This document shows, piece by piece, positions 3,967 to 34,492 of a DNA stretch of 64,000 nucleotides (positions are counted from its first letter, which is position 1; every line of letters starts with the position of its first letter). The DNA is taken from positions 14,522 through 78,521 of IMG/VR virus record IMGVR_UViG_3300036783_000204; one strand, 5' to 3'. This stretch comes from a virus (Duplodnaviria > Caudoviricetes). The notes beneath the pieces were generated by a model. That model ran no database searches. It was not told where the DNA came from and saw only the letters and a list, made by a program, of their open reading frames with translations. A program made the translations under genes and the position numbers.

Positions 3967-4158
3967 GTGAGCGAATTCCGAGTGCTTATCAAGACCGATA
4001 ACGCGGCCTTCGAAGACGGCCGGGACGCCGAGCTGGCGCGCATCCTCCGGGAGATCGCCGACGGTCTGGACGAGGGGGTTTCGGCTGGCAACGTCCGCGA
4101 CATCAACGGCAACACCGTGGGCGACTTCGGTGCGCGCATCGACGGCACCATGCCCTGA
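3967..4158 (+). CDS. Small conserved phage protein
   Basis: IKTDNAAF...ELARILREIAD...VRDINGNTVG motif typical of a widespread small phage family. Confidence 0.75.
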   Translation: MSEFRVLIKTDNAAFEDGRDAELARILREIADGLDEGVSAGNVRDINGNTVGDFGARIDGTMP

Positions 4159-4260
4159 TCTGTCCGTGTGACCGCTTTCGCGCCCGTCACCTGTGGACGG
4201 GTGCGGGCGTGGCTACACGGCCAACGAAAAGCAGCAGCCGAAGCAACGGGAGAGCAGACA

Positions 4261-4506
4261 ATGAGCGACACGCAGGAAAACACCCGCTGGGTCGAGGTGT
4301 GGATCATCAATGACGGCGACTACCACGACCGCGCGCTTGAACTCGCGACGGACGGAGACACGGACGGACTTGGGGAATACCTGACGGAGTCCCTGAAAGG
4401 CGCCCCTGAGGGGTCCGGCGCGTGGCACACGGCCCAGGAGATGTCTGACGCTGACTACGGCCGTGTGGACTGGAAAGAGATCGCCGAGACCCTGACAGCC
4501 AAGTAA
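4261..4506 (+). CDS. Hypothetical acidic protein
   Basis: GGGAGAG RBS and ATG 4261 downstream of conserved hairpin. Confidence 0.75.
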   Translation: MSDTQENTRWVEVWIINDGDYHDRALELATDGDTDGLGEYLTESLKGAPEGSGAWHTAQEMSDADYGRVDWKEIAETLTAK

Positions 4507-13182: not shown

Positions 13183-13361
13183 GATTCATCGCGCTCCCGT
13201 TGTTCGTTGCGGACCTGGGCGCGGCCCTCCCGCCGCTCCCGGCGGTTGCCCTGCCTTTTGATCCTCTTCACTGCTCCGGCCTTCTGTGTCCAGCAGTAGA
13301 GGCGACGCCAGGGGCCGTGGACGTCCTGCTCCGCGCTGCCGACGCGGCGCCGCTTCATCAT
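13179..13361 (-). CDS. Small Arg/Lys-rich phage protein
   Basis: ATG 13361; WRRLYCW...KRIKRQGNRRERR motif; overlaps both neighbours. Confidence 0.6.
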   Translation of the reverse strand: MMKRRRVGSAEQDVHGPWRRLYCWTQKAGAVKRIKRQGNRRERREGRAQVRNEQRERDES

Positions 13362-13729
13362 GTGTCCTCGTCGGTCCTGTAGATGGCCGTGGGAATCCCG
13401 GCGGCCTTGGCCATCGCTGCGCAAGCGCTGGCTCCGGCGGAGTCCCCCCGGATGAACGCCAGACATTCGTCGGCACCGAGGCGCACCATTTCGGCGTTGC
13501 GGATCATCCCGGCGCGGCGGCGGTGCGTCTTCCAGTCGGCGGGGTGGATCTCGGTGGGGATCTTCCAGAGTCTGGCGACGTACTGGGCGATCTGGTCTGC
13601 TCCGCGCGGGCAACCTCCGTTGACGATGAGCAGGTCTTCGTGCTTCTGCTTCGCCTCGACGATCGCCGTGGCGATGGTGGCGCCGTCGGTCCAGCTGCGG
13701 GAGCCGGTGATGAGGAGGCGGTAGGTCAT
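13358..13729 (-). CDS. SLOG-family (DUF2493/YspA-like) protein
   Basis: LITGSRSW, VNGGCPRGAD, AGMIRNAEM, GAS motifs. Confidence 0.85.
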   Translation of the reverse strand: MTYRLLITGSRSWTDGATIATAIVEAKQKHEDLLIVNGGCPRGADQIAQYVARLWKIPTEIHPADWKTHRRRAGMIRNAEMVRLGADECLAFIRGDSAGASACAAMAKAAGIPTAIYRTDEDT

Positions 13730-13902
13730 TCCCACTCCGCGATCTCGACGGGTGGGCCGAACACGTCGACGATGATCGTGCGCTCAGCGAAGAGGCGACG
13801 GAACTTCCGGACGGCATCTCGGAGGGATTCGCCCGGCATCTCGCAGTAGCGGGGGTTGATCGCCTTCGGGCCGGTGAGGTACTTGATCAAGTATTTAGTC
13901 AT
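13726..13902 (-). CDS. Hypothetical small protein (not in ORF track)
   Basis: MTKYLIKYLTGPKAINPRYCEMPG..., ATGA overlap with downstream gene. Confidence 0.5.
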   Translation of the reverse strand: MTKYLIKYLTGPKAINPRYCEMPGESLRDAVRKFRRLFAERTIIVDVFGPPVEIAEWE

Positions 13903-15143: not shown

Positions 15144-15608
15144 TTATGTGCTGTCGTCCTCGTCTGAAACGTGGCTGTTGACGACCCTGGCGAATGCGAG
15201 GGCACGGGCGTCCACGTCGAGCACGTCGGCCGCGGCGGAGTCGAGCCACGCCGCGAGGGGTTCAGCAACGGCGGGGCCCATGAGGGCGATCCAGGAGGCG
15301 TTGCCTGCCATGTGGGCGGATTCGAGGTCGGCGATGGTGCCGTGGGTAGTCCAGCCGGGCTCTTCGGTTTCGTGCGTGACCCACCAGCAGTTGTGCTGTT
15401 CGAGGTATTCGGCAGCCCATGTCCCGCCGCTGGTGTTGGCGGCGAGTTCGCGCAGGCGTGCCGCTGCGGTACGGAGTTCACTCAGGTCGCGCATACACGT
15501 GCACGCGCGTAGGTACGTTCGCTTGTAGTTGCACTCGGCTTCGTGCGTCGACGCTTCGCGTCTCCACGTGCATTCACTGCACATACACGTGTTCACGTTG
15601 ATATGCAT
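15144..15608 (-). CDS. Hypothetical protein (Ead/Ea22-like C-terminal motif)
   Basis: GGGAGG RBS and ATG 15608; ASWIALMGPAVAEPLAAWL. Confidence 0.6.
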   Translation of the reverse strand: MHINVNTCMCSECTWRREASTHEAECNYKRTYLRACTCMRDLSELRTAAARLRELAANTSGGTWAAEYLEQHNCWWVTHETEEPGWTTHGTIADLESAHMAGNASWIALMGPAVAEPLAAWLDSAAADVLDVDARALAFARVVNSHVSDEDDST

Positions 15609-16189
15609 GTGCTCACCTCCCTGGCGCAGTAGGGGTGCCCGGCGCGCACCAGGAGCGCCATCAGGTCGCCCAGCTCGACGCGGATCGGCGTCGTGGCCAG
15701 CGGCCCGCGGAAGGTGCCTTCGACAGCGAGGAAGACGAGATCGCAGGCGGGTAGCCAGGCCCACCATTTGCCGGGGTCGGCCTTTCCCGGCCGCCGTTGG
15801 ATCAGGAAGCCCATGACGGCGCCTGCCGCCTGGGTCTGCTCCTGGGTCTCCGCCATGGCGTCCCGGATTTCCCTGTCCGTCATGTACTGGCGGTACTTCA
15901 GCTGCCACACGAACGGGGTGCCTCGGATGTCCCCGGTATCGGCGCTTGCGCGGTCGGTGGTGCGGAAGCCGGTGACGACAGCGCGTTCGGACTCCGGCCA
16001 CCAGGTCTTGAGGTACTTCGCGAGGGTGCGCTCCGCGACGGCGCCCTTCTGGCGTGAGGCTCGTCCCAGTGCAGCGTGGTCGGTCAGTTCACGTTCGCCT
16101 GCCTGCGGGTAAAGGGTCGGGCGGCCACATATCCGGTGACCGCCCGACAGGCTATTGTGTGACGGATTACGAGTCCGTTGCCCACTCAA
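15593..16189 (-). CDS. PD-(D/E)xK Holliday junction resolvase-like nuclease (start uncertain)
   Basis: SRQKGAVAER...DTGDI...WQLK...IQRRPGK pattern of actinophage resolvases. Confidence 0.75.
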   Translation of the reverse strand: MSGQRTRNPSHNSLSGGHRICGRPTLYPQAGERELTDHAALGRASRQKGAVAERTLAKYLKTWWPESERAVVTGFRTTDRASADTGDIRGTPFVWQLKYRQYMTDREIRDAMAETQEQTQAAGAVMGFLIQRRPGKADPGKWWAWLPACDLVFLAVEGTFRGPLATTPIRVELGDLMALLVRAGHPYCAREVSTCIST

Positions 16190-16255
16190 AGGGCGACAAT
16201 GGAACTACCATTTCGTGGCGTCACCACGTTTAAACGTCCGAATCAGGGTCAGTAC

Positions 16256-16326
16256 TGCTGTGCTCTCCTGTTGAGCTACGGAGCCATGGTGGAGGCTCCG
16301 GCCGGATTTGCACCGGCATCCCAGCA
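16256..16326 (-). ncRNA. Circularly permuted tRNA-like RNA, unit 2 (YrlA-like topology)
   Basis: 5'-TGCTG|GGAT|GCCGG-TGCAAAT-CCGGC|CGGAGCC|TCCACCAT|GGCTCCG|TA|GCTC-AACAGGA-GAGC|A|CAGCA-3'; all four helices pair. Confidence 0.8.
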
Positions 16327-16397
16327 AGTATCGTCCGGACGTGGTCGATGTGACACACGGTAGCAATGCTGAGTCTGCGGCAAGAATCTGATCCGCG

Positions 16398-16471
16398 TCC
16401 CGCGCCTCTACCGCTTGGGCTACCCGGGCATGAAGAGCCCAGGGCAGGATTCGAACCTGCACGTAACGGGA
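16398..16471 (-). ncRNA. Circularly permuted tRNA-like RNA, unit 1 (YrlA-like topology)
   Basis: 5'-TCCCG|TTACGT|GCAGG-TTCGAAT-CCTGC|CCTGGGC|TCTTCAT|GCCCGGG|TA|GCC-CAAGCGGTAGA-GGC|G|CGGGA-3'; all four helices pair. Confidence 0.85.
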
Positions 16472-16535
16472 TATTCGGGTGATCGTCAGTCTGAGTCTGT
16501 GCTGAATCTGTGCCATCCCTGCTGCGCAGGGAAAC

Positions 16536-17270
16536 CTAGGGGCGGAGGAGGAACTCGAAGAACGACTTGCCGATCTTCAGCTCCGCAACCTCCGCCGAGT
16601 TCGCTGCCTCACGTGCCGTCTTCACTGCCCGCTGAAGCGCCTCCACGCGTTCCGTCAGCACCTTAATGCGGGCCGCCTGGAGCGCGCCGGAGAACTTCAC
16701 CGTCGTCCACGTTCCCACAATAACGTCTTCGTGGAAAGCGTCCACGATGGCCTGGTGGTGCTCGGTCGCCGGGGCGCGCACGAAGGCCTTCGGGACCTTC
16801 TTCGTGCGTGTCGTCTCGACCGGGTCGGTGGCGAACGCGTCGGTGGTGTCGTCGTAGGTCCAGTGCTCGGCCTGGTCCAGCATCGGCAGTTTGCGCACGA
16901 ACGTGGCGAGGTCCACGAGCTGCTTCTCCAAGAACAGCAGGACGGTGACGGGCACCGCTTCGAGGACGGTGACATCGCCGACGACAACATCGGCGGTGGC
17001 GCCACGGTTGGAGTTTTCCAGGCTGGCCACCACATCGAACATGCGGCTCAGCCGGTCGGCCACCTGGTCGATGACCTCGGTGGCGCGGACCTGCACCCGC
17101 GTCGACTCCGGCGGAAGGTGGTCTCCCTCCTCGTCGCGCGGCTGGTAGGTGCGGGCCAGGCCCGAAAGCAGGGCAGGCTTCGCCAGGGTGTGGTAGGCGT
17201 TGGTCAGTTCGCCTGCCGCGCCGGACTTCTCGCCCTTGGCGATCGCAATCAGCTGGTGAAGCTGGGTCAT
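16536..17270 (-). CDS. Uncharacterised 244-aa helical/coiled-coil protein immediately upstream of the tRNA-like RNAs
   Basis: GAGGAG RBS, ATG 17270; no catalytic or TROVE/vWA motif recognised. Confidence 0.85.
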   Translation of the reverse strand: MTQLHQLIAIAKGEKSGAAGELTNAYHTLAKPALLSGLARTYQPRDEEGDHLPPESTRVQVRATEVIDQVADRLSRMFDVVASLENSNRGATADVVVGDVTVLEAVPVTVLLFLEKQLVDLATFVRKLPMLDQAEHWTYDDTTDAFATDPVETTRTKKVPKAFVRAPATEHHQAIVDAFHEDVIVGTWTTVKFSGALQAARIKVLTERVEALQRAVKTAREAANSAEVAELKIGKSFFEFLLRP

Positions 17271-17277
17271 GTGCTCC

Positions 17278-17514
17278 TCATTTCACTGAGTCTGTTTCCT
17301 CGGGTTCCCTGTGTGCAACCCGAGCCTCTTTCCCCTCCTGGAACCCTTTCCGGAAGCCGTAGAGGGCCAGGAAACCGCCACTGGCAACGGACGCAAGGAT
17401 CATCGGCACCAGGAACAGCGGGTACGCGGACGCGGCCGCGCTGCTGATAAGGGCGACGAAGCTGCCCAGGCCGCCCTGTAGGAGAAGCATGCAGTCGGGA
17501 ATCCGTCGAATCAC
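17278..17514 (-). CDS. Two-TM membrane protein
   Basis: Two hydrophobic helices. Confidence 0.6.
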   Translation of the reverse strand: MIRRIPDCMLLLQGGLGSFVALISSAAASAYPLFLVPMILASVASGGFLALYGFRKGFQEGKEARVAHREPEETDSVK

Positions 17515-17642
17515 CTGTCCTCCTTCGCATCCCGCAGGATCGCGGCGGTCTCTGCCGCCCAGCGGTCAAGCTTTTCGTTGACGTGCTTCAGTTCGGTGTA
17601 GATGGCGCGCAGGAGAAGCACGACGGCATCGTCCTTCTCCAT
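17511..17642 (-). CDS. Small hypothetical protein
   Basis: 43 aa, overlaps neighbours. Confidence 0.45.
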   Translation of the reverse strand: MEKDDAVVLLLRAIYTELKHVNEKLDRWAAETAAILRDAKEDR

Positions 17643-17926
17643 CAGATGAACTCCGTCTTCTCCACCGGCGCCCAGGCCACTGAATCCTGGTTGTAGGACA
17701 GGCGAAGTTCGGTCAGCTCCTCCTTCAATGCATCCTTCTCGGCCTCCGGGTATTGGATGACGATGCAGGCGTTCTGGAACGCGGTGTCGGGCGCAGAGAA
17801 CCACTCCCCGAGGATGGAGCTTGAATACTGCCGCATGATCCGCCGGAAGTCGCGGATGTATTCCGCGTACTCCCGTTGGGTCAGCTTGCCGTCGCTGTTG
17901 CCGATCGAAACGTAGACGGTGTTCAT
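17642..17926 (-). CDS. Conserved actinophage hypothetical protein
   Basis: VYVSIGNSDGKLTQ...W.S.PD...QNAC...YNQDSVAW motif. Confidence 0.7.
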   Translation of the reverse strand: MNTVYVSIGNSDGKLTQREYAEYIRDFRRIMRQYSSSILGEWFSAPDTAFQNACIVIQYPEAEKDALKEELTELRLSYNQDSVAWAPVEKTEFI

Positions 17927-19207: not shown

Positions 19208-19342
19208 TCAGCGGCCCCTGGAACAGTCCATCTTGTGGTGTGCACGGCTGAAGCGTCGGCACTCTGGGCAGCGTCCATTCAGCCGGTACCAGAGGCGGAC
19301 CATGCACCATTGCAGTCGATCGAGGATCGCTCTCAGGTTCAT
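19208..19342 (-). CDS. Small Zn-finger protein
   Basis: CPEC...H..DC; GGAGG RBS. Confidence 0.45.
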   Translation of the reverse strand: MNLRAILDRLQWCMVRLWYRLNGRCPECRRFSRAHHKMDCSRGR

Positions 19343-19581
19343 CAGACCTCCTCCCCCGAGGATTCCTCGGGCGCAGCAGGCGGGGCAGGCAGGCCGGTCA
19401 CGAGCTGGAAATCGAACCGACAGCCGAGCAGCCACGCCCAGTAGTCCAGGGTGGACAGCGGCGTGACGGCCTTACCCCTGAGTACCTCGTTCAGGTGCTT
19501 CGTGGAGACGCCTGCGAGGCGGCAGAACTCGGCCTGGCTGATGCCACGCTCGTCGAGTGCCTCGCCGATCAGGGCGCCCAT
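19342..19581 (-). CDS. XRE-family HTH protein
   Basis: RGISQAEFCRLAGVSTKHLNEVLRGK. Confidence 0.8.
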   Translation of the reverse strand: MGALIGEALDERGISQAEFCRLAGVSTKHLNEVLRGKAVTPLSTLDYWAWLLGCRFDFQLVTGLPAPPAAPEESSGEEV

Positions 19582-19601
19582 TCGGTGAACGGTGAGATGG
19601 C

Positions 19602-20030
19602 TCAGAACGGCGGCTCCTCGTCGCCGGTCCAGCGGTGCTCCTCCGCGGACGGTCCACTGGTGCGTGTCGCCTTCTGAATCTTCGCTGTCGCATACCGGAG
19701 CGACGGGCCGATCTCGTCGACCTGCATCTCAACGACGGTGCGCTTCTCGCCCTCTCGCGTCTCGTACGAGCGCTGAACGAGCCGTCCCTGGACGATTACC
19801 CTCGCGCCCCGGGTGAGGCTCTCTGCGAGGTTCTCAGCCGTTGTTCGCCAGACGGAGCATCGGAGGAACAGCGCCTCGCCGTCCTTCCACTGCCCCGAAG
19901 TCTTGTCGAAAGTGCGAGGTGTGGAAGCGACGGTGAAGCTCGCGACGGCCGCGCCAGTCGAGACGAACCTGATTTCCGGGTCAGCGGTGAGGTTCCCGAC
20001 AACAGTGATTACGACGTCGCCTGCCACCAA
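19602..20030 (-). CDS. ssb: Single-stranded DNA-binding protein
   Basis: [15 protein letters not shown]...ASTPRTFDK...LFLRCSVWR...acidic C-terminus EEPPF. Confidence 0.95.
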
Positions 20031-20415: not shown

Positions 20416-20624
20416 TACTCCTCCTCCGGGCTCGTGGTGGCCTTCGCCATCTTCGCTTTCGCTTCCTCGCGAAGCCTCGCGGCGCGCTTCCGAAGGATCT
20501 TCGCCAGCTCGTCCTCAGTGGTGCGGTCGATCGCCGCCTTCGTGGCGTCGGCGACGAGGGTTCCGGCGACGTAGCCGAGGCAGGCGGAGATGCCCAGCCA
20601 GCAGAACAGGATCAGGTTCTTCAT
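20415..20624 (-). CDS. Membrane-anchored small protein
   Basis: GGAGG RBS, ATG 20624, N-terminal TM. Confidence 0.55.
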   Translation of the reverse strand: MKNLILFCWLGISACLGYVAGTLVADATKAAIDRTTEDELAKILRKRAARLREEAKAKMAKATTSPEEE

Positions 20625-21076
20625 GCGCCCTCCTGGGCAGCGAGTTCGATGCGGGACGGGTGGAATGCCTTGATGGGGACCCACTGCCCGCGCCGGTGAC
20701 CGCGGCCGAGCTGACGGGCGCAGGGACGGCCAGCCACAGCGCGGCAGTGCGGGCACGTCACGGACATGGCGGGGTCGTGGGTGGTCTGCTGCTGAGTCCA
20801 GCCGAGCCTCTTGCCCAGTGCCGCGAGGACGTTGCGGACATGCTCAGGCTGCGCCGCGGGCTTCGGCGGGGCCTCGATCAGTTTCGCAGGGAGTGGGAGC
20901 TGACGCTGGGCCCGGATGTGCTGCGTGACGTGTGCTGGGCGCAGGTATTCCGTCGAGTTCGCGAAGTGCTCGAAGACGGCCTCGCGAGCTTCCTCGAAGG
21001 TCCACCTGCCGCGGACGGAGGACTCCTGCCACGCCATGATGTTGCCGTCGCCGGGTTTGCGGTTGTCGTAAGACAC
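20621..21076 (-). CDS. Helicase loader/inhibitor-like protein with C-terminal Zn finger (true N-terminus probably extends to ~21127-21133)
   Basis: DNRKPGDGNIMAW...TFEEAREAVFEHF...YLRPAHV pattern; CPHC...C...H; follows replication initiator. Confidence 0.6.
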   Translation of the reverse strand: MSYDNRKPGDGNIMAWQESSVRGRWTFEEAREAVFEHFANSTEYLRPAHVTQHIRAQRQLPLPAKLIEAPPKPAAQPEHVRNVLAALGKRLGWTQQQTTHDPAMSVTCPHCRAVAGRPCARQLGRGHRRGQWVPIKAFHPSRIELAAQEGA

Positions 21077-34416: not shown

Positions 34417-34490
34417 AGCGGGGTGGAGCAGCTCGGTAGCTCACTGGGCTCATAACCCAAAGGTCGCAGGTTCGAATCCTGTCCCCGCAA
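34417..34490 (+). tRNA. Initiator tRNA-Met (CAT), CCA not encoded
   Basis: Full cloverleaf; anticodon loop CTCATAA; three consecutive G-C pairs in the anticodon stem and unpaired 1:72, both initiator hallmarks; T-loop TTCGAAT. Confidence 0.93.
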
Positions 34491-34492
34491 CA

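What the first reader, a model, noticed from the sequence alone, without database searches (positions are those of the whole stretch)
16200..17270. Two tandem circularly permuted, anticodon-less tRNA folds downstream of a non-Ro 244-aa protein: candidate new phage RNP system
Seen: on the - strand, within ~65 nt of the stop of the 244-aa gene, two units (16398-16471 and 16256-16326) each read T-arm first and D-arm last. Order: 3' strand of the anticodon stem, variable loop, T-arm (TTCGAAT / TGCAAAT loops), acceptor 3' strand, 7-8 nt closing loop, acceptor 5' strand, TA, D-arm with the GG dinucleotide, 5' strand of the anticodon stem. All four helices pair within each unit (acceptor CCTGGGC/GCCCGGG and CGGAGCC/GGCTCCG; anticodon stems TCCCG/CGGGA and TGCTG/CAGCA), although the two units differ in primary sequence. 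Read conventionally (5' half of unit 1 with 3' half of unit 2), the acceptor stem does not pair, so these are not ordinary or intron-containing tRNAs. Established: this topology (closed acceptor stem, open anticodon arm) is that of bacterial YrlA Y-RNA-like tRNA mimics, which normally lie beside Ro60/Rsr (TROVE) genes. No TROVE/vWA protein is visible in this window. Inference: the adjacent uncharacterised helical protein is the partner of these RNAs, forming an RNP that may act as a tRNA-elbow decoy or scaffold, for example against host anticodon nucleases or T-box/stringent sensing. I do not know of a description of this protein-RNA pairing.
Basis: partly seen in the sequence, partly recalled or inferred. 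Interest (0 to 1): 0.9.

Follow-up and report, generated by a model that had tools for sequence, protein, structure and literature searches.

The report
Double tRNA-mimic RNA beside DUF7873 gene
A phage gene of unknown function (DUF7873) is followed by a roughly 330-base folded RNA carrying two back-to-front tRNA look-alikes of the Y-RNA (YrlA) type, and this gene-RNA pair recurs in many phages and bacteria, mostly without the Ro60 protein such RNAs normally serve, so it probably marks an undescribed RNA-protein system.

Summary
Two circularly permuted, anticodon-less tRNA folds lie at 16398-16471(-) and 16256-16326(-), 64 nt after the stop of a 244-aa gene (Pfam DUF7873, E 1.6e-95). They are two domains of one structured RNA of about 330 nt (16535 to about 16203). 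It also holds a 5' hairpin, two tracks with 6-nt periodicity, and a rod of covarying helices around a conserved internal loop (AUCGACC / UUAAACGUG).

The gene-RNA pairing is conserved. My covariance model finds the units beside DUF7873 in nearly all 32 metagenomic viral loci, in 7 of 9 cultured phages scored and, by eye, in the other 2 (often inside tRNA arrays), in 3 bacterial chromosomes of three phyla, and in 7 of 7 carriers from an unbiased sample of 151 Actinomycetes.

The phage has no Ro60/TROVE, RtcB or CCA-adding enzyme. Where Ro60 coexists with DUF7873, in two of the three cases examined it has its own adjacent YrlA-like RNAs.

DUF7873 has no known fold. A homodimer prediction passes its controls. 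Binding of protein to RNA, transcription and function remain untested.

The module is not phage-specific, and a decoy for anticodon nucleases is unlikely because there is no anticodon loop.

This scan has already flagged the same family on other DNA (177 notes, at least 112 genomes). I found no description in Rfam or in the papers searched.

The parts
16536..17270 (-). DUF7873 gene (244 aa). ATG at 17270, Shine-Dalgarno GAGGAG at 17279-17274, stop TAG at 16538-16536.
   Evidence: Pfam PF25283, E 1.6e-95, profile positions 1-242 of 244. GC3 0.88. More than 4100 homologous clusters. AF2 pLDDT 91. Homodimer prediction passes its controls.
16517..16531 (-). 5' hairpin of the RNA (CCCUGC-GCA-GCAGGG). 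It begins 5 nt after the stop codon. In relatives the same place holds UCCCCG-UUGAGC-GCGGGG.
   Evidence: Sequence. Positionally conserved hairpin in alignment A3 and in the leader sequences.
16472..16516 (-). First single-stranded track with 6-nt periodicity (CAGAUU CAGCAC AGACUC AGACUG ACGAUC ...).
   Evidence: Autocorrelation over 38 segments from 19 loci: offset 6 z = 14.5, offset 12 z = 7.6. Sequences.
16398..16471 (-). tRNA-like domain 1, circularly permuted: 3' strand of the anticodon stem, variable region, T arm, acceptor hairpin with loop UCUUCAU, U8-A9, 3-bp D arm of the GCC-CAAGCGGUAGA-GGC type, 5' strand of the anticodon stem.
   Evidence: Fold. Rfam YrlA 22.8 bits. Model R1 78.4 bits, E 3e-20. 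Covariation in A2.
16367..16397 (-). Second 6-nt-periodic track and conserved linker (GAUCAGAUUCUUGCCGCAGACUCAGCA). The consensus in relatives is CUCAGAYUCUCGCUCCAGAYUCAGCAU.
   Evidence: Alignment A3. Linker sequences. Periodicity.
16359..16364 (-). Tentative outer helix P0, 5' strand (GCUACC). It pairs with 16204-16209.
   Evidence: Seen by eye in the window and, with compensatory changes, in L004 and L055. Not recovered by RNAalifold, so tentative.
16350..16355 (-). Helix P1, 5' strand (UGUCAC). It pairs with 16219-16224.
   Evidence: RNAalifold on 19 loci (A5, columns 25-30 with 167-172). All 6 pairs show compensatory changes.
16343..16349 (-). Conserved internal loop, 5' side (AUCGACC).
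   Evidence: AUC[GA]A is present in 25 of 33 loci at this place. Conserved columns in A5.
16231..16342 (-). tRNA-like domain 2 with its stem P2 (16342-16334 pairs with 16242-16234). The core is 16326-16256. The acceptor loop UCCACCAU carries an encoded N-CCA.
   Evidence: Fold z -3.3, 0 of 200 shuffles as good. Rfam YrlA 30.3 bits, full-length model match. R1 58.7 bits. P2, T, acceptor and D helices covary.
16225..16233 (-). Conserved internal loop, 3' side (UUAAACGUG).
   Evidence: UUAAA[CU]G is present in 23 of 33 loci at this place. Conserved columns in A5.
16219..16224 (-). Helix P1, 3' strand (GUGACG).
16204..16209 (-). Tentative helix P0, 3' strand (GGUAGU), and probable 3' limit of the conserved RNA.
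   Evidence: Tentative: a local hairpin at 16211-16199 competes with it in the single-sequence fold.
16116..16148 (-). Strong 13-bp hairpin followed by CCUUUA. This is a possible transcript end, a terminator-like site without a U run.
   Evidence: Sequence and fold. The consensus terminator scan does not list it.

Best explanation
Shown here. Window 16203-17270(-) is a self-contained two-part module. It consists of the DUF7873 gene and, starting 5 nt after its stop codon, a conserved structured non-coding RNA of about 330 nt.

The RNA is built as follows: a 5' hairpin, a 6-nt-periodic single-stranded track, a permuted tRNA-like domain 1, a second periodic track, and then a rod (helices P0, P1 and P2 around a conserved internal loop AUCGACC / UUAAACGUG) capped by a permuted tRNA-like domain 2. 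Both domains have a T arm, a D arm with GG (so a tRNA elbow) and a 7-bp acceptor stem closed by a loop. They have no anticodon loop. This is the YrlA (bacterial Y RNA) design.

Inferred.
1. The gene and the RNA are co-transcribed here.
2. As published for Mycobacterium smegmatis YrlA, the 7-bp acceptor hairpins are cut by RNase P just 5' of the acceptor 5' strand, and the upstream piece is trimmed or extended to a CCA end. The loops read N-CCA or N-CU plus 3-5 nt, mostly ending in U or A before the 5' strand. This would leave a nicked, base-paired RNA that shows two tRNA-like acceptor/elbow faces.
3. The DUF7873 protein, predicted to be an intertwined homodimer with two long beta ribbons bearing conserved basic residues (R155, K157, K158, K161), is the dedicated partner of this RNA. 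It most likely binds at the conserved internal loop and/or the hexamer tracks. The resulting particle would be Ro60-independent and Y-RNA-like, presenting tRNA mimics to tRNA-binding enzymes.
4. Because the module lies in ordinary bacterial chromosomes as well as inside phage tRNA arrays, its role is more likely in tRNA or RNA metabolism and surveillance than in a purely anti-defence function.
For: - Folds and Rfam.
- Conserved position and strand of one or two units beside DUF7873: most of 32 viral loci plus 9 cultured phages, 3 of 3 bacterial chromosomes from three phyla, and 7 of 7 carriers in an unbiased sample of 151 Actinomycetes.
- Covariation: 11 of 12 T and acceptor pairs show double changes. 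In flanks that were not pre-selected, RNAalifold finds P1 and P2; 29 of 31 pairs are compensatory.
- 6-nt periodicity, z 14.5.
- The bacterial neighbours are unrelated housekeeping genes, so the gene and the RNA are the only constant partners.
- Ro60 is absent from this phage, from 4 of 5 other complete phage genomes and from 3 of 9 bacterial carriers tested.
- In Rhizobium phage RHph_TM2_3B and in Deinococcus aquatilis, the Ro60 gene has its own adjacent YrlA-like RNAs. Each protein gene therefore has its own RNA.
- Homodimer prediction: score 0.60 against a best control of 0.01 (3 controls). The mark was reached by 20 of 30 proteins solved as pairs of one chain and by 1 of 23 solved as single chains. 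These counts hold only roughly because my own alignment was used. The runs agree in at least 97% of contacts and the partner's pLDDT is at least 87. Many invariant residues lie in that interface.
Against: - There are no transcript, processing or binding data of any kind.
- The protein is mildly acidic (pI 5.7; family range 5.5-8.5) and has no recognisable RNA-binding fold.
- Domain 1 is replaced by a plain hairpin in L009, L053 and L059, so a neat match of two domains to two protomers does not hold generally.
- In L030 the RNA lies upstream of the gene and ends in a terminator, so co-transcription is not universal.
- TROVE is enriched among DUF7873 carriers in Actinomycetes (Fisher p 2.5e-4, not corrected for phylogeny or genome size). 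This leaves room for a link to Ro60.
- An earlier check within this scan priced the Ro-independent particle reading at only 22 in 100 (e1-2703945).
Confidence: 0.45

Rival explanations
1. It is an ordinary Y RNA that works with Ro60/Rsr supplied in trans by the host. DUF7873 is then an accessory factor of the Ro pathway or merely a neighbour.
For: - YrlA is the best Rfam family for both units.
- Ro60-adjacent RNAs of RHph_TM2_3B score no better against that model (36-37 bits) than its DUF7873-adjacent RNA (35.9 bits).
- In 151 Actinomycetes, TROVE occurs in 5 of 7 DUF7873 carriers against 13 of 144 others.
- The 5' side of the internal loop, AUCGAC, loosely resembles the proposed Rsr motif GNCGAAN0-1G.
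Against: - There is no TROVE in this phage or in 4 of 5 other complete phage genomes, nor in 3 of 9 bacterial carriers tested.
- TROVE is never adjacent to DUF7873.
- In two of the three coexisting cases examined, the Ro60 gene has its own adjacent RNAs.
- The exact Rsr motif is present in only 3 of 33 RNAs.
- The co-occurrence statistic is not corrected for phylogeny or genome size; all carriers have genomes of 7-9 Mb.
Confidence: 0.2
2. The RNA is a cis-acting 3' UTR or punctuation element of the DUF7873 mRNA. The tRNA-like folds recruit RNase P or block 3' exonucleases to process or stabilise the message, with no function in trans.
For: - The RNA starts 5 nt after the stop codon on the same strand.
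- No promoter-like site was found between gene and RNA.
- In phages the gene lies in tRNA arrays, where RNase P processing is the rule.
Against: - The RNA is about 330 nt long, with a conserved internal loop, covarying rod helices and hexamer tracks. That is far more than punctuation needs.
- In L030 the RNA precedes the gene and is separated from it by a terminator.
- Sequence conservation of the RNA across phyla is as strong as that of the protein.
Confidence: 0.12
3. DUF7873 is an enzyme and the RNA is its substrate or cofactor. For example, it might act on the CCA or aminoacyl end of the processed tRNA-like domains, as tRNA-dependent transferases do.
For: - There are invariant polar residues outside the predicted dimer interface (E115, K116, H172, D182, K158) and a conserved acidic loop DEEGD at residues 46-50.
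- The acceptor stems are 7 bp long with encoded N-CCA in many loci.
Against: - No fold or sequence similarity to any enzyme was found.
- No anticodon or obvious synthetase identity set is conserved.
- The idea is entirely speculative.
Confidence: 0.1
4. The units are chance folds, decayed tRNA genes, or the halves of split or permuted true tRNA genes.
For: - Tandem tRNA genes can give weak permuted hits to my model (for example L033 3026-3095, 33 bits).
- Permuted tRNA genes exist in some algae (from my own knowledge, not checked here).
Against: - There is no anticodon loop, and ARAGORN calls nothing.
- Each unit's acceptor strands pair with each other, not across units.
- Architecture and position are conserved across phyla with compensatory changes.
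Confidence: 0.02

Closest known systems
YrlA (Y RNA-like A; Rfam RF02553) with Ro60/Rsr. Chen et al. 2014, PMC4201824; structure preprint 10.1101/312249.
   Same: - A permuted tRNA-like module: T arm, loop-closed acceptor stem, D arm, and 5' and 3' ends leaving through the anticodon-stem position into a long stem.
- Tandem RNAs next to a protein gene on the same strand.
- Present in both bacteria and phages.
- A 7-bp acceptor stem with a CCA-type loop, as in the M. smegmatis YrlA that is cut by RNase P and receives CCA.
   Different: - The adjacent gene is DUF7873 (244 aa, mixed alpha/beta, predicted dimer), not the roughly 500-aa HEAT-repeat ring Ro60 with its vWA domain.
- No TROVE in this phage.
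- Rfam scores are below the gathering score.
- The Rsr motif GNCGAAN0-1G is absent.
- Extra conserved elements are present: the internal loop AUCGACC / UUAAACGUG, the hexamer tracks and the 5' hairpin.
- The two tRNA-like domains sit in one RNA.
tmRNA with SmpB, including two-piece permuted tmRNA (Rfam RF04321)
   Same: A tRNA-like domain without an anticodon arm that works with a small dedicated protein. Permuted gene order exists in some lineages.
   Different: - No tag reading frame or pseudoknot set was found.
- The Rfam permuted-tmRNA match is 13.8 bits against a gathering score of 47.
- The 3:70 pair is C-G in both units, not the G-U alanine identity pair.
- The protein is unrelated to SmpB by Pfam.
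Circularly permuted tRNA genes of the red alga Cyanidioschyzon merolae (from my own knowledge, not checked here)
   Same: The gene order has the 3' half before the 5' half, with the acceptor strands joined by a short linker that includes the CCA region.
   Different: Those genes yield complete tRNAs with an anticodon loop after circularisation. Here no anticodon loop exists, and the ends continue into conserved helices.

Membership tests
YrlA / bacterial Y RNA (Rfam RF02553) | Score at or above the Rfam gathering score (69 bits) | tested here: not met
   30.3 and 22.8 bits. Caveat: Ro60-adjacent RNAs of phage RHph_TM2_3B also reach only 36-37 bits, so the cut-off is strict for phage members.
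YrlA / bacterial Y RNA (Rfam RF02553) | Permuted tRNA-like module: T arm, closed acceptor stem, D arm, ends exiting at the anticodon-stem position | tested here: met
   Folds. Full-length alignment to the YrlA model. Covariation.
YrlA / bacterial Y RNA (Rfam RF02553) | Encoded within about 4 kb of a Ro60/TROVE gene on the same strand (criterion of Chen et al. 2014) | tested here: not met
   No TROVE match in the whole 78.5-kb phage record. The flanking gene is DUF7873.
YrlA / bacterial Y RNA (Rfam RF02553) | GNCGAAN0-1G motif near the 5' end (proposed Rsr contact) | tested here: not met
   The window has AUCGACC at the corresponding place. The exact motif occurs in 3 of 33 DUF7873-linked RNAs.
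YrlA / bacterial Y RNA (Rfam RF02553) | Bound by Ro60/Rsr in vivo | not testable with these tools
   This needs immunoprecipitation in a host that has Rsr.
tRNA (RF00005) | Cloverleaf in standard order with an anticodon loop | tested here: not met
   ARAGORN finds none here. Rfam tRNA matches only the T arm, 14.4 bits.
tmRNA, permuted (RF04321) | tRNA-like domain plus tag reading frame and pseudoknots; alanine identity pair G3-U70 | tested here: not met
   13.8 bits against a gathering score of 47. The 3:70 pair is C-G in both units. ARAGORN reports no tmRNA.
DUF7873 (Pfam PF25283) | Full-length match above the curated cut-off | tested here: met
   319.9 bits, E 1.6e-95, profile positions 1-242 of 244.
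Ro60 / TROVE (PF05731), for the protein | TROVE domain by sequence | tested here: not met
   No TROVE hit for the 244-aa protein at E up to 1. No TROVE anywhere in the phage.
Ro60 / TROVE (PF05731), for the protein | HEAT-repeat ring fold | tested here: inconclusive
   The AF2 model is a mixed alpha/beta elongated protein of 244 aa. Ro60 is not among the fold-search rows, which does not exclude it.

The most novel reading that the evidence does not exclude
A DUF7873 homodimer and its cis-encoded double tRNA-mimic RNA form a widespread ribonucleoprotein that does not depend on Ro60. It would be a second, independent protein partner class for Y-RNA-like tRNA mimics. The RNA would be matured by RNase P and CCA enzymes into a nicked molecule showing two acceptor/elbow faces. 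Bacteria, and phages with large tRNA sets, would use it to recruit, titrate or protect tRNA-handling enzymes.
Probability: 0.3. Interest if true: 0.85.

Novelty: new variant of a known kind. Interest (0 to 1): 0.74.

Why it matters
Y RNAs are known only as partners of Ro60. Here a YrlA-type tRNA mimic, doubled and set in a larger conserved RNA, travels with a different and very conserved protein. That protein shows 55-60% identity across phyla and forms more than 4100 clusters. The pair occurs in bacteria of several phyla and in cultured phages of Gordonia, Arthrobacter, Rhodococcus, Rhizobium, Klebsiella, Vibrio and cyanobacteria, often inside phage tRNA arrays.

If protein and RNA form a particle, it would be a new class of bacterial and phage ribonucleoprotein built on tRNA mimicry. 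It would give DUF7873 a function and would explain 400-500-nt stretches left empty or annotated only with small hypothetical ORFs in many phage genomes. In at least one phage such a stretch appears to be mis-called as a suppressor tRNA. Cultured carriers exist, so the idea can be tested directly.

Tried and rejected
- PHROGs: no family for the protein.
- PDB by sequence profile: nothing meaningful, best E 0.16 to designed helical proteins.
- Foldseek against PDB and BFVD: no match at E <= 0.001.
- VIA-align wide on the whole model: best is 3kdq, an uncharacterised Corynebacterium protein, Z 8.2 at rmsd 8.1 A. The rest are generic helical hairpins.
- Sub-domain 91-198, folded alone (pLDDT 88) and searched wide: best Z 2.5 to the beta arms of an HU-like protein. 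This is not meaningful.
- ESM Atlas: only DUF7873 clusters.
- Search for longer, fused forms: one 457-aa protein with no extra Pfam domain.
- megablast of the locus against cultured phages: no match.
- Promoter and terminator consensus scan of 15900-17700: none found.
- Public runs: no RNA holder listed. The only holder is a soil metagenome DNA run that may be the source of this DNA.
It is not held in the library, so I could not check it.
- RtcB and CCA-adding enzyme in the phage: none found.
- The idea that the dimer's two-fold symmetry matches the two tRNA-like domains was weakened. Domain 1 is replaced by a plain hairpin in L009, L053 and L059.
- A decoy for anticodon nucleases was rejected because no anticodon loop is present.
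Full report
**What is in the sequence**

On the - strand, the 244-aa gene at 17270-16536 is followed after 64 nt by two units. Each reads as 3' anticodon-stem strand, variable region, T arm, acceptor 3' strand, closing loop of 7-8 nt, acceptor 5' strand, UA, D arm with GG, and 5' anticodon-stem strand. RNAfold returns exactly these four-helix folds as minimum-free-energy structures. Unit 2 folds much better than shuffles, with z -3.1 for the core and -3.3 with its lower stem. Unit 1 is only modestly better, z -1.5. ARAGORN finds only one tRNA in the window, tRNA-Met at 34417-34491. The only Rfam family above its gathering score is that same tRNA. With permissive thresholds, YrlA (RF02553) is the best family for both units, at 30.3 and 22.8 bits against a gathering score of 69, and the model aligns over its full length.

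**The protein**

The gene is a full-length member of Pfam DUF7873 (E 1.6e-95). It has no PHROG family, and no paper in the library mentions DUF7873. An AF2 model built on 25 relatives is confident (pLDDT 91, pTM 0.63). It shows long helices plus beta sheets, including two 16-residue strands. No convincing relative was found by PDB sequence profile, Foldseek on PDB or BFVD, VIA-align wide on the whole model (best Z 8.2 at rmsd 8.1 A to an uncharacterised protein), or VIA-align wide on the central domain alone (best Z 2.5).

A homodimer prediction passes its controls. The score is 0.60 against a best control of 0.01. The mark was reached by 20 of 30 proteins solved as pairs of one chain and by 1 of 23 solved as single chains. 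The runs agree in at least 97% of contacts and the partner's pLDDT is at least 87. My own alignment was used, so the counts hold only roughly. Many invariant residues (G37, Y42, N88, F113, L114, Q117, D120, P129, G186) lie in that large symmetric interface.

The family is mildly acidic to neutral, pI 5.5-8.5. It has a conserved acidic loop DEEGD at residues 46-50 and a conserved basic stretch at R155, K157, K158 and K161 on the first long strand. There are more than 4100 homologous clusters, at 55-60% identity, spread across Actinomycetota, Chloroflexota, Deinococcota, Myxococcota and Verrucomicrobiota. No informative fusions were found.

**The pairing is conserved**

- **Metagenomic viral loci.** A pattern scanner of my own found permuted units 40-350 nt after the DUF7873 stop codon in most of 32 viral loci. 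A covariance model built from 29 such units (R1) then found one or two strong hits at that place in nearly all of them.
- **Cultured phages.** R1 also scored hits at 35 bits or more in 7 of the 9 cultured phages fetched: Gordonia Phendrix and Ziko, Arthrobacter Mimi, Rhodococcus NiceHouse, Pseudanabaena PA-SR01, Rhizobium RHph_TM2_3B and Klebsiella FBKp24. Vibrio D517, Microcoleus My-WqHQDG and the metagenomic locus L021 score weakly. By eye they carry the same unit with a hairpin or a large insertion in the acceptor loop.
- **Annotation gaps.** In the deposited annotations, the 400-530 nt after the gene are empty or filled with small hypothetical ORFs. In Phendrix, Mimi, NiceHouse and RHph_TM2_3B the module sits inside tRNA arrays.
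- **Bacteria.** The module is not phage-specific. In Deinococcus aquatilis (between sucB and sucA), Tengunoibacter tsumagoiensis and a Kitasatospora, the gene stands alone among unrelated housekeeping genes, followed by a 420-700-nt gap. Both units are found in that gap.
- **Unbiased sample.** In 151 Actinomycetes genomes drawn evenly, 7 carry DUF7873. All 7 have R1 hits directly downstream.
- **Exceptions.** In L030 the RNA lies upstream of the gene and ends in a terminator. In L009, L053 and L059 a plain hairpin replaces domain 1, while domain 2 and its rod are kept.

**One RNA, not two genes**

Alignment of whole intergenic regions shows a common plan. It runs as follows:

1. a hairpin just after the stop codon;
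2. a single-stranded track;
3. domain 1;
4. a conserved linker, consensus CUCAGAYUCUCGCUCCAGAYUCAGCAU;
5. AUCGACC;
6. a long stem;
7. domain 2;
8. UUAAACGUG;
9. a closing strand.

RNAalifold on 19 domain-2 regions, whose flanks were not pre-selected for pairing, predicts P1, P2 and the T, acceptor and D helices. 29 of 31 pairs show compensatory changes. For the T and acceptor stems of 29 units, 11 of 12 pairs show double changes. Those units were picked by a pairing filter, so the 100% pairing itself is by construction.

The tracks on either side of domain 1 have a strong 6-nt periodicity: z 14.5 at offset 6 and z 7.6 at offset 12, over 38 segments. The motifs AUC[GA]A and UUAAA[CU]G occur at their places in 25 and 23 of 33 loci. 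The Rsr motif GNCGAAN0-1G proposed for YrlA occurs in only 3 of 33.

The acceptor loops read N-CCA or N-CU followed by 3-5 nt, mostly ending in U or A before the 5' strand. This is the arrangement of M. smegmatis YrlA, which has a 7-bp acceptor stem, is cut by RNase P and receives CCA in vivo (PMC4201824).

**Relation to Ro60**

- The whole 78.5-kb phage record has no TROVE, RtcB or CCA-adding enzyme, and only these two R1 hits.
- Of five other complete DUF7873 phage genomes, four lack TROVE. RHph_TM2_3B has a Ro60 gene 6 kb away with its own YrlA-like RNAs just upstream.
- D. aquatilis has TROVE genes on other contigs, and one of them has three R1 hits just upstream.
- Tengunoibacter has no TROVE match.
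- In the 151 Actinomycetes, TROVE occurs in 5 of 7 DUF7873 carriers against 13 of 144 others. Fisher p is 2.5e-4. All carriers have genomes of 7-9 Mb, and neither relatedness nor genome size is corrected for.

So Ro60 is neither adjacent nor required. In two coexisting genomes examined it has its own RNAs. A functional connection is still not excluded.

**Most likely mechanism and its rivals**

I rate at 0.45 that this is a dedicated gene-RNA module whose products form a Ro60-independent, Y-RNA-like particle. In that reading the RNA is matured by RNase P and CCA enzymes and shows tRNA acceptor/elbow mimics. The architecture, conservation, covariation and linkage are shown. Transcription, processing, binding and function are inferred.

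The rivals are:

- an ordinary Y RNA that uses host Ro60 in trans (0.2);
- a cis-acting 3' UTR or processing element (0.12);
- an enzyme with its RNA substrate (0.1);
- decayed or split tRNA genes, or chance (0.02).

A decoy for anticodon nucleases is unlikely because there is no anticodon loop. The module's presence among housekeeping genes in bacteria argues for a role in tRNA or RNA metabolism rather than a purely anti-defence one.

**Novelty**

Rfam 15 has no family for this RNA beyond weak YrlA matches. I found no paper that describes it.

This scan has flagged the same family before on other DNA, in 177 notes from at least 112 genomes. My own tests agree with those notes on the RNA, on the pairing, on the embedded CCA and on the six-letter repeats. 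A later check recorded there priced the Ro-independent particle reading at 22 in 100.

- the pairing rate of 7 of 7 in an unbiased genome sample;
- the 2x2 table of DUF7873 against TROVE;
- two genomes in which Ro60 and DUF7873 each have their own adjacent RNAs;
- the replacement of domain 1 by a hairpin in some lineages;
- the homodimer prediction.

Noticed in passing
window 16162-16178 (-): A 5-bp stem with a 7-nt loop CUCGUAA (ACGGA-CUCGUAA-UCCGU) looks like an anticodon arm, with U at loop position 2 and A at position 6. It lies 3' of the conserved RNA and is not conserved at this place in the other loci.
   Followed up: partly
window 15593-16189 (-): The next ORF is 198 aa, with a weak PDDEXK_15 match (E 0.0014). 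In its first 50 codons its only canonical in-frame start is the TTG at 16189. That start lies inside the structured 3' extension of the RNA and upstream of the strong hairpin at 16148-16116, so the true start or the transcript structure here is unclear.
   Followed up: partly
L039 4013-4097 (Klebsiella phage vB_KpM_FBKp24, NC_061421.1): The record annotates a suppressor tRNA (tRNA-Sup-TTA), and ARAGORN repeats the call. However, it borrows the T arm and acceptor 3' strand of tRNA-like domain 2 of the DUF7873-linked RNA (R1 hit at 4061-4155). The true pairing partner AGGCAGA and a D arm lie downstream at about 4125-4150. The suppressor tRNA is probably a mis-call.
   Followed up: partly
L048 387-1228 and L047 (Rhizobium phage RHph_TM2_3B, MN988523.1, around 138.2-140.8 kb): This phage has a Ro60/TROVE gene with two or three YrlA-like RNAs just upstream. 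It lies about 6 kb from the phage's DUF7873-RNA module, in the same tRNA-rich region. It would be a natural system for comparing the two kinds of module.
   Followed up: partly
L030 2662-2886 and 3001-3726: The order is inverted in this viral contig. The double tRNA-like RNA comes first and ends in a strong terminator hairpin, and the DUF7873 gene follows.
   Followed up: partly
L021/L022 about 3968-4500: In this viral contig the acceptor hairpin of a tRNA-like domain appears to carry an insertion of about 330 nt between its two strands (CCCCACG ... CGUGGGG).
   Followed up: no
window 13358-13735 (-), 19342-20030 (-), 20621-21076 (-): The module lies in the early/replication region of the phage, alongside a YspA/SLOG-type YAcAr domain protein, an HTH protein, SSB and a phage zinc-finger protein. 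All are on the - strand.
   Followed up: no
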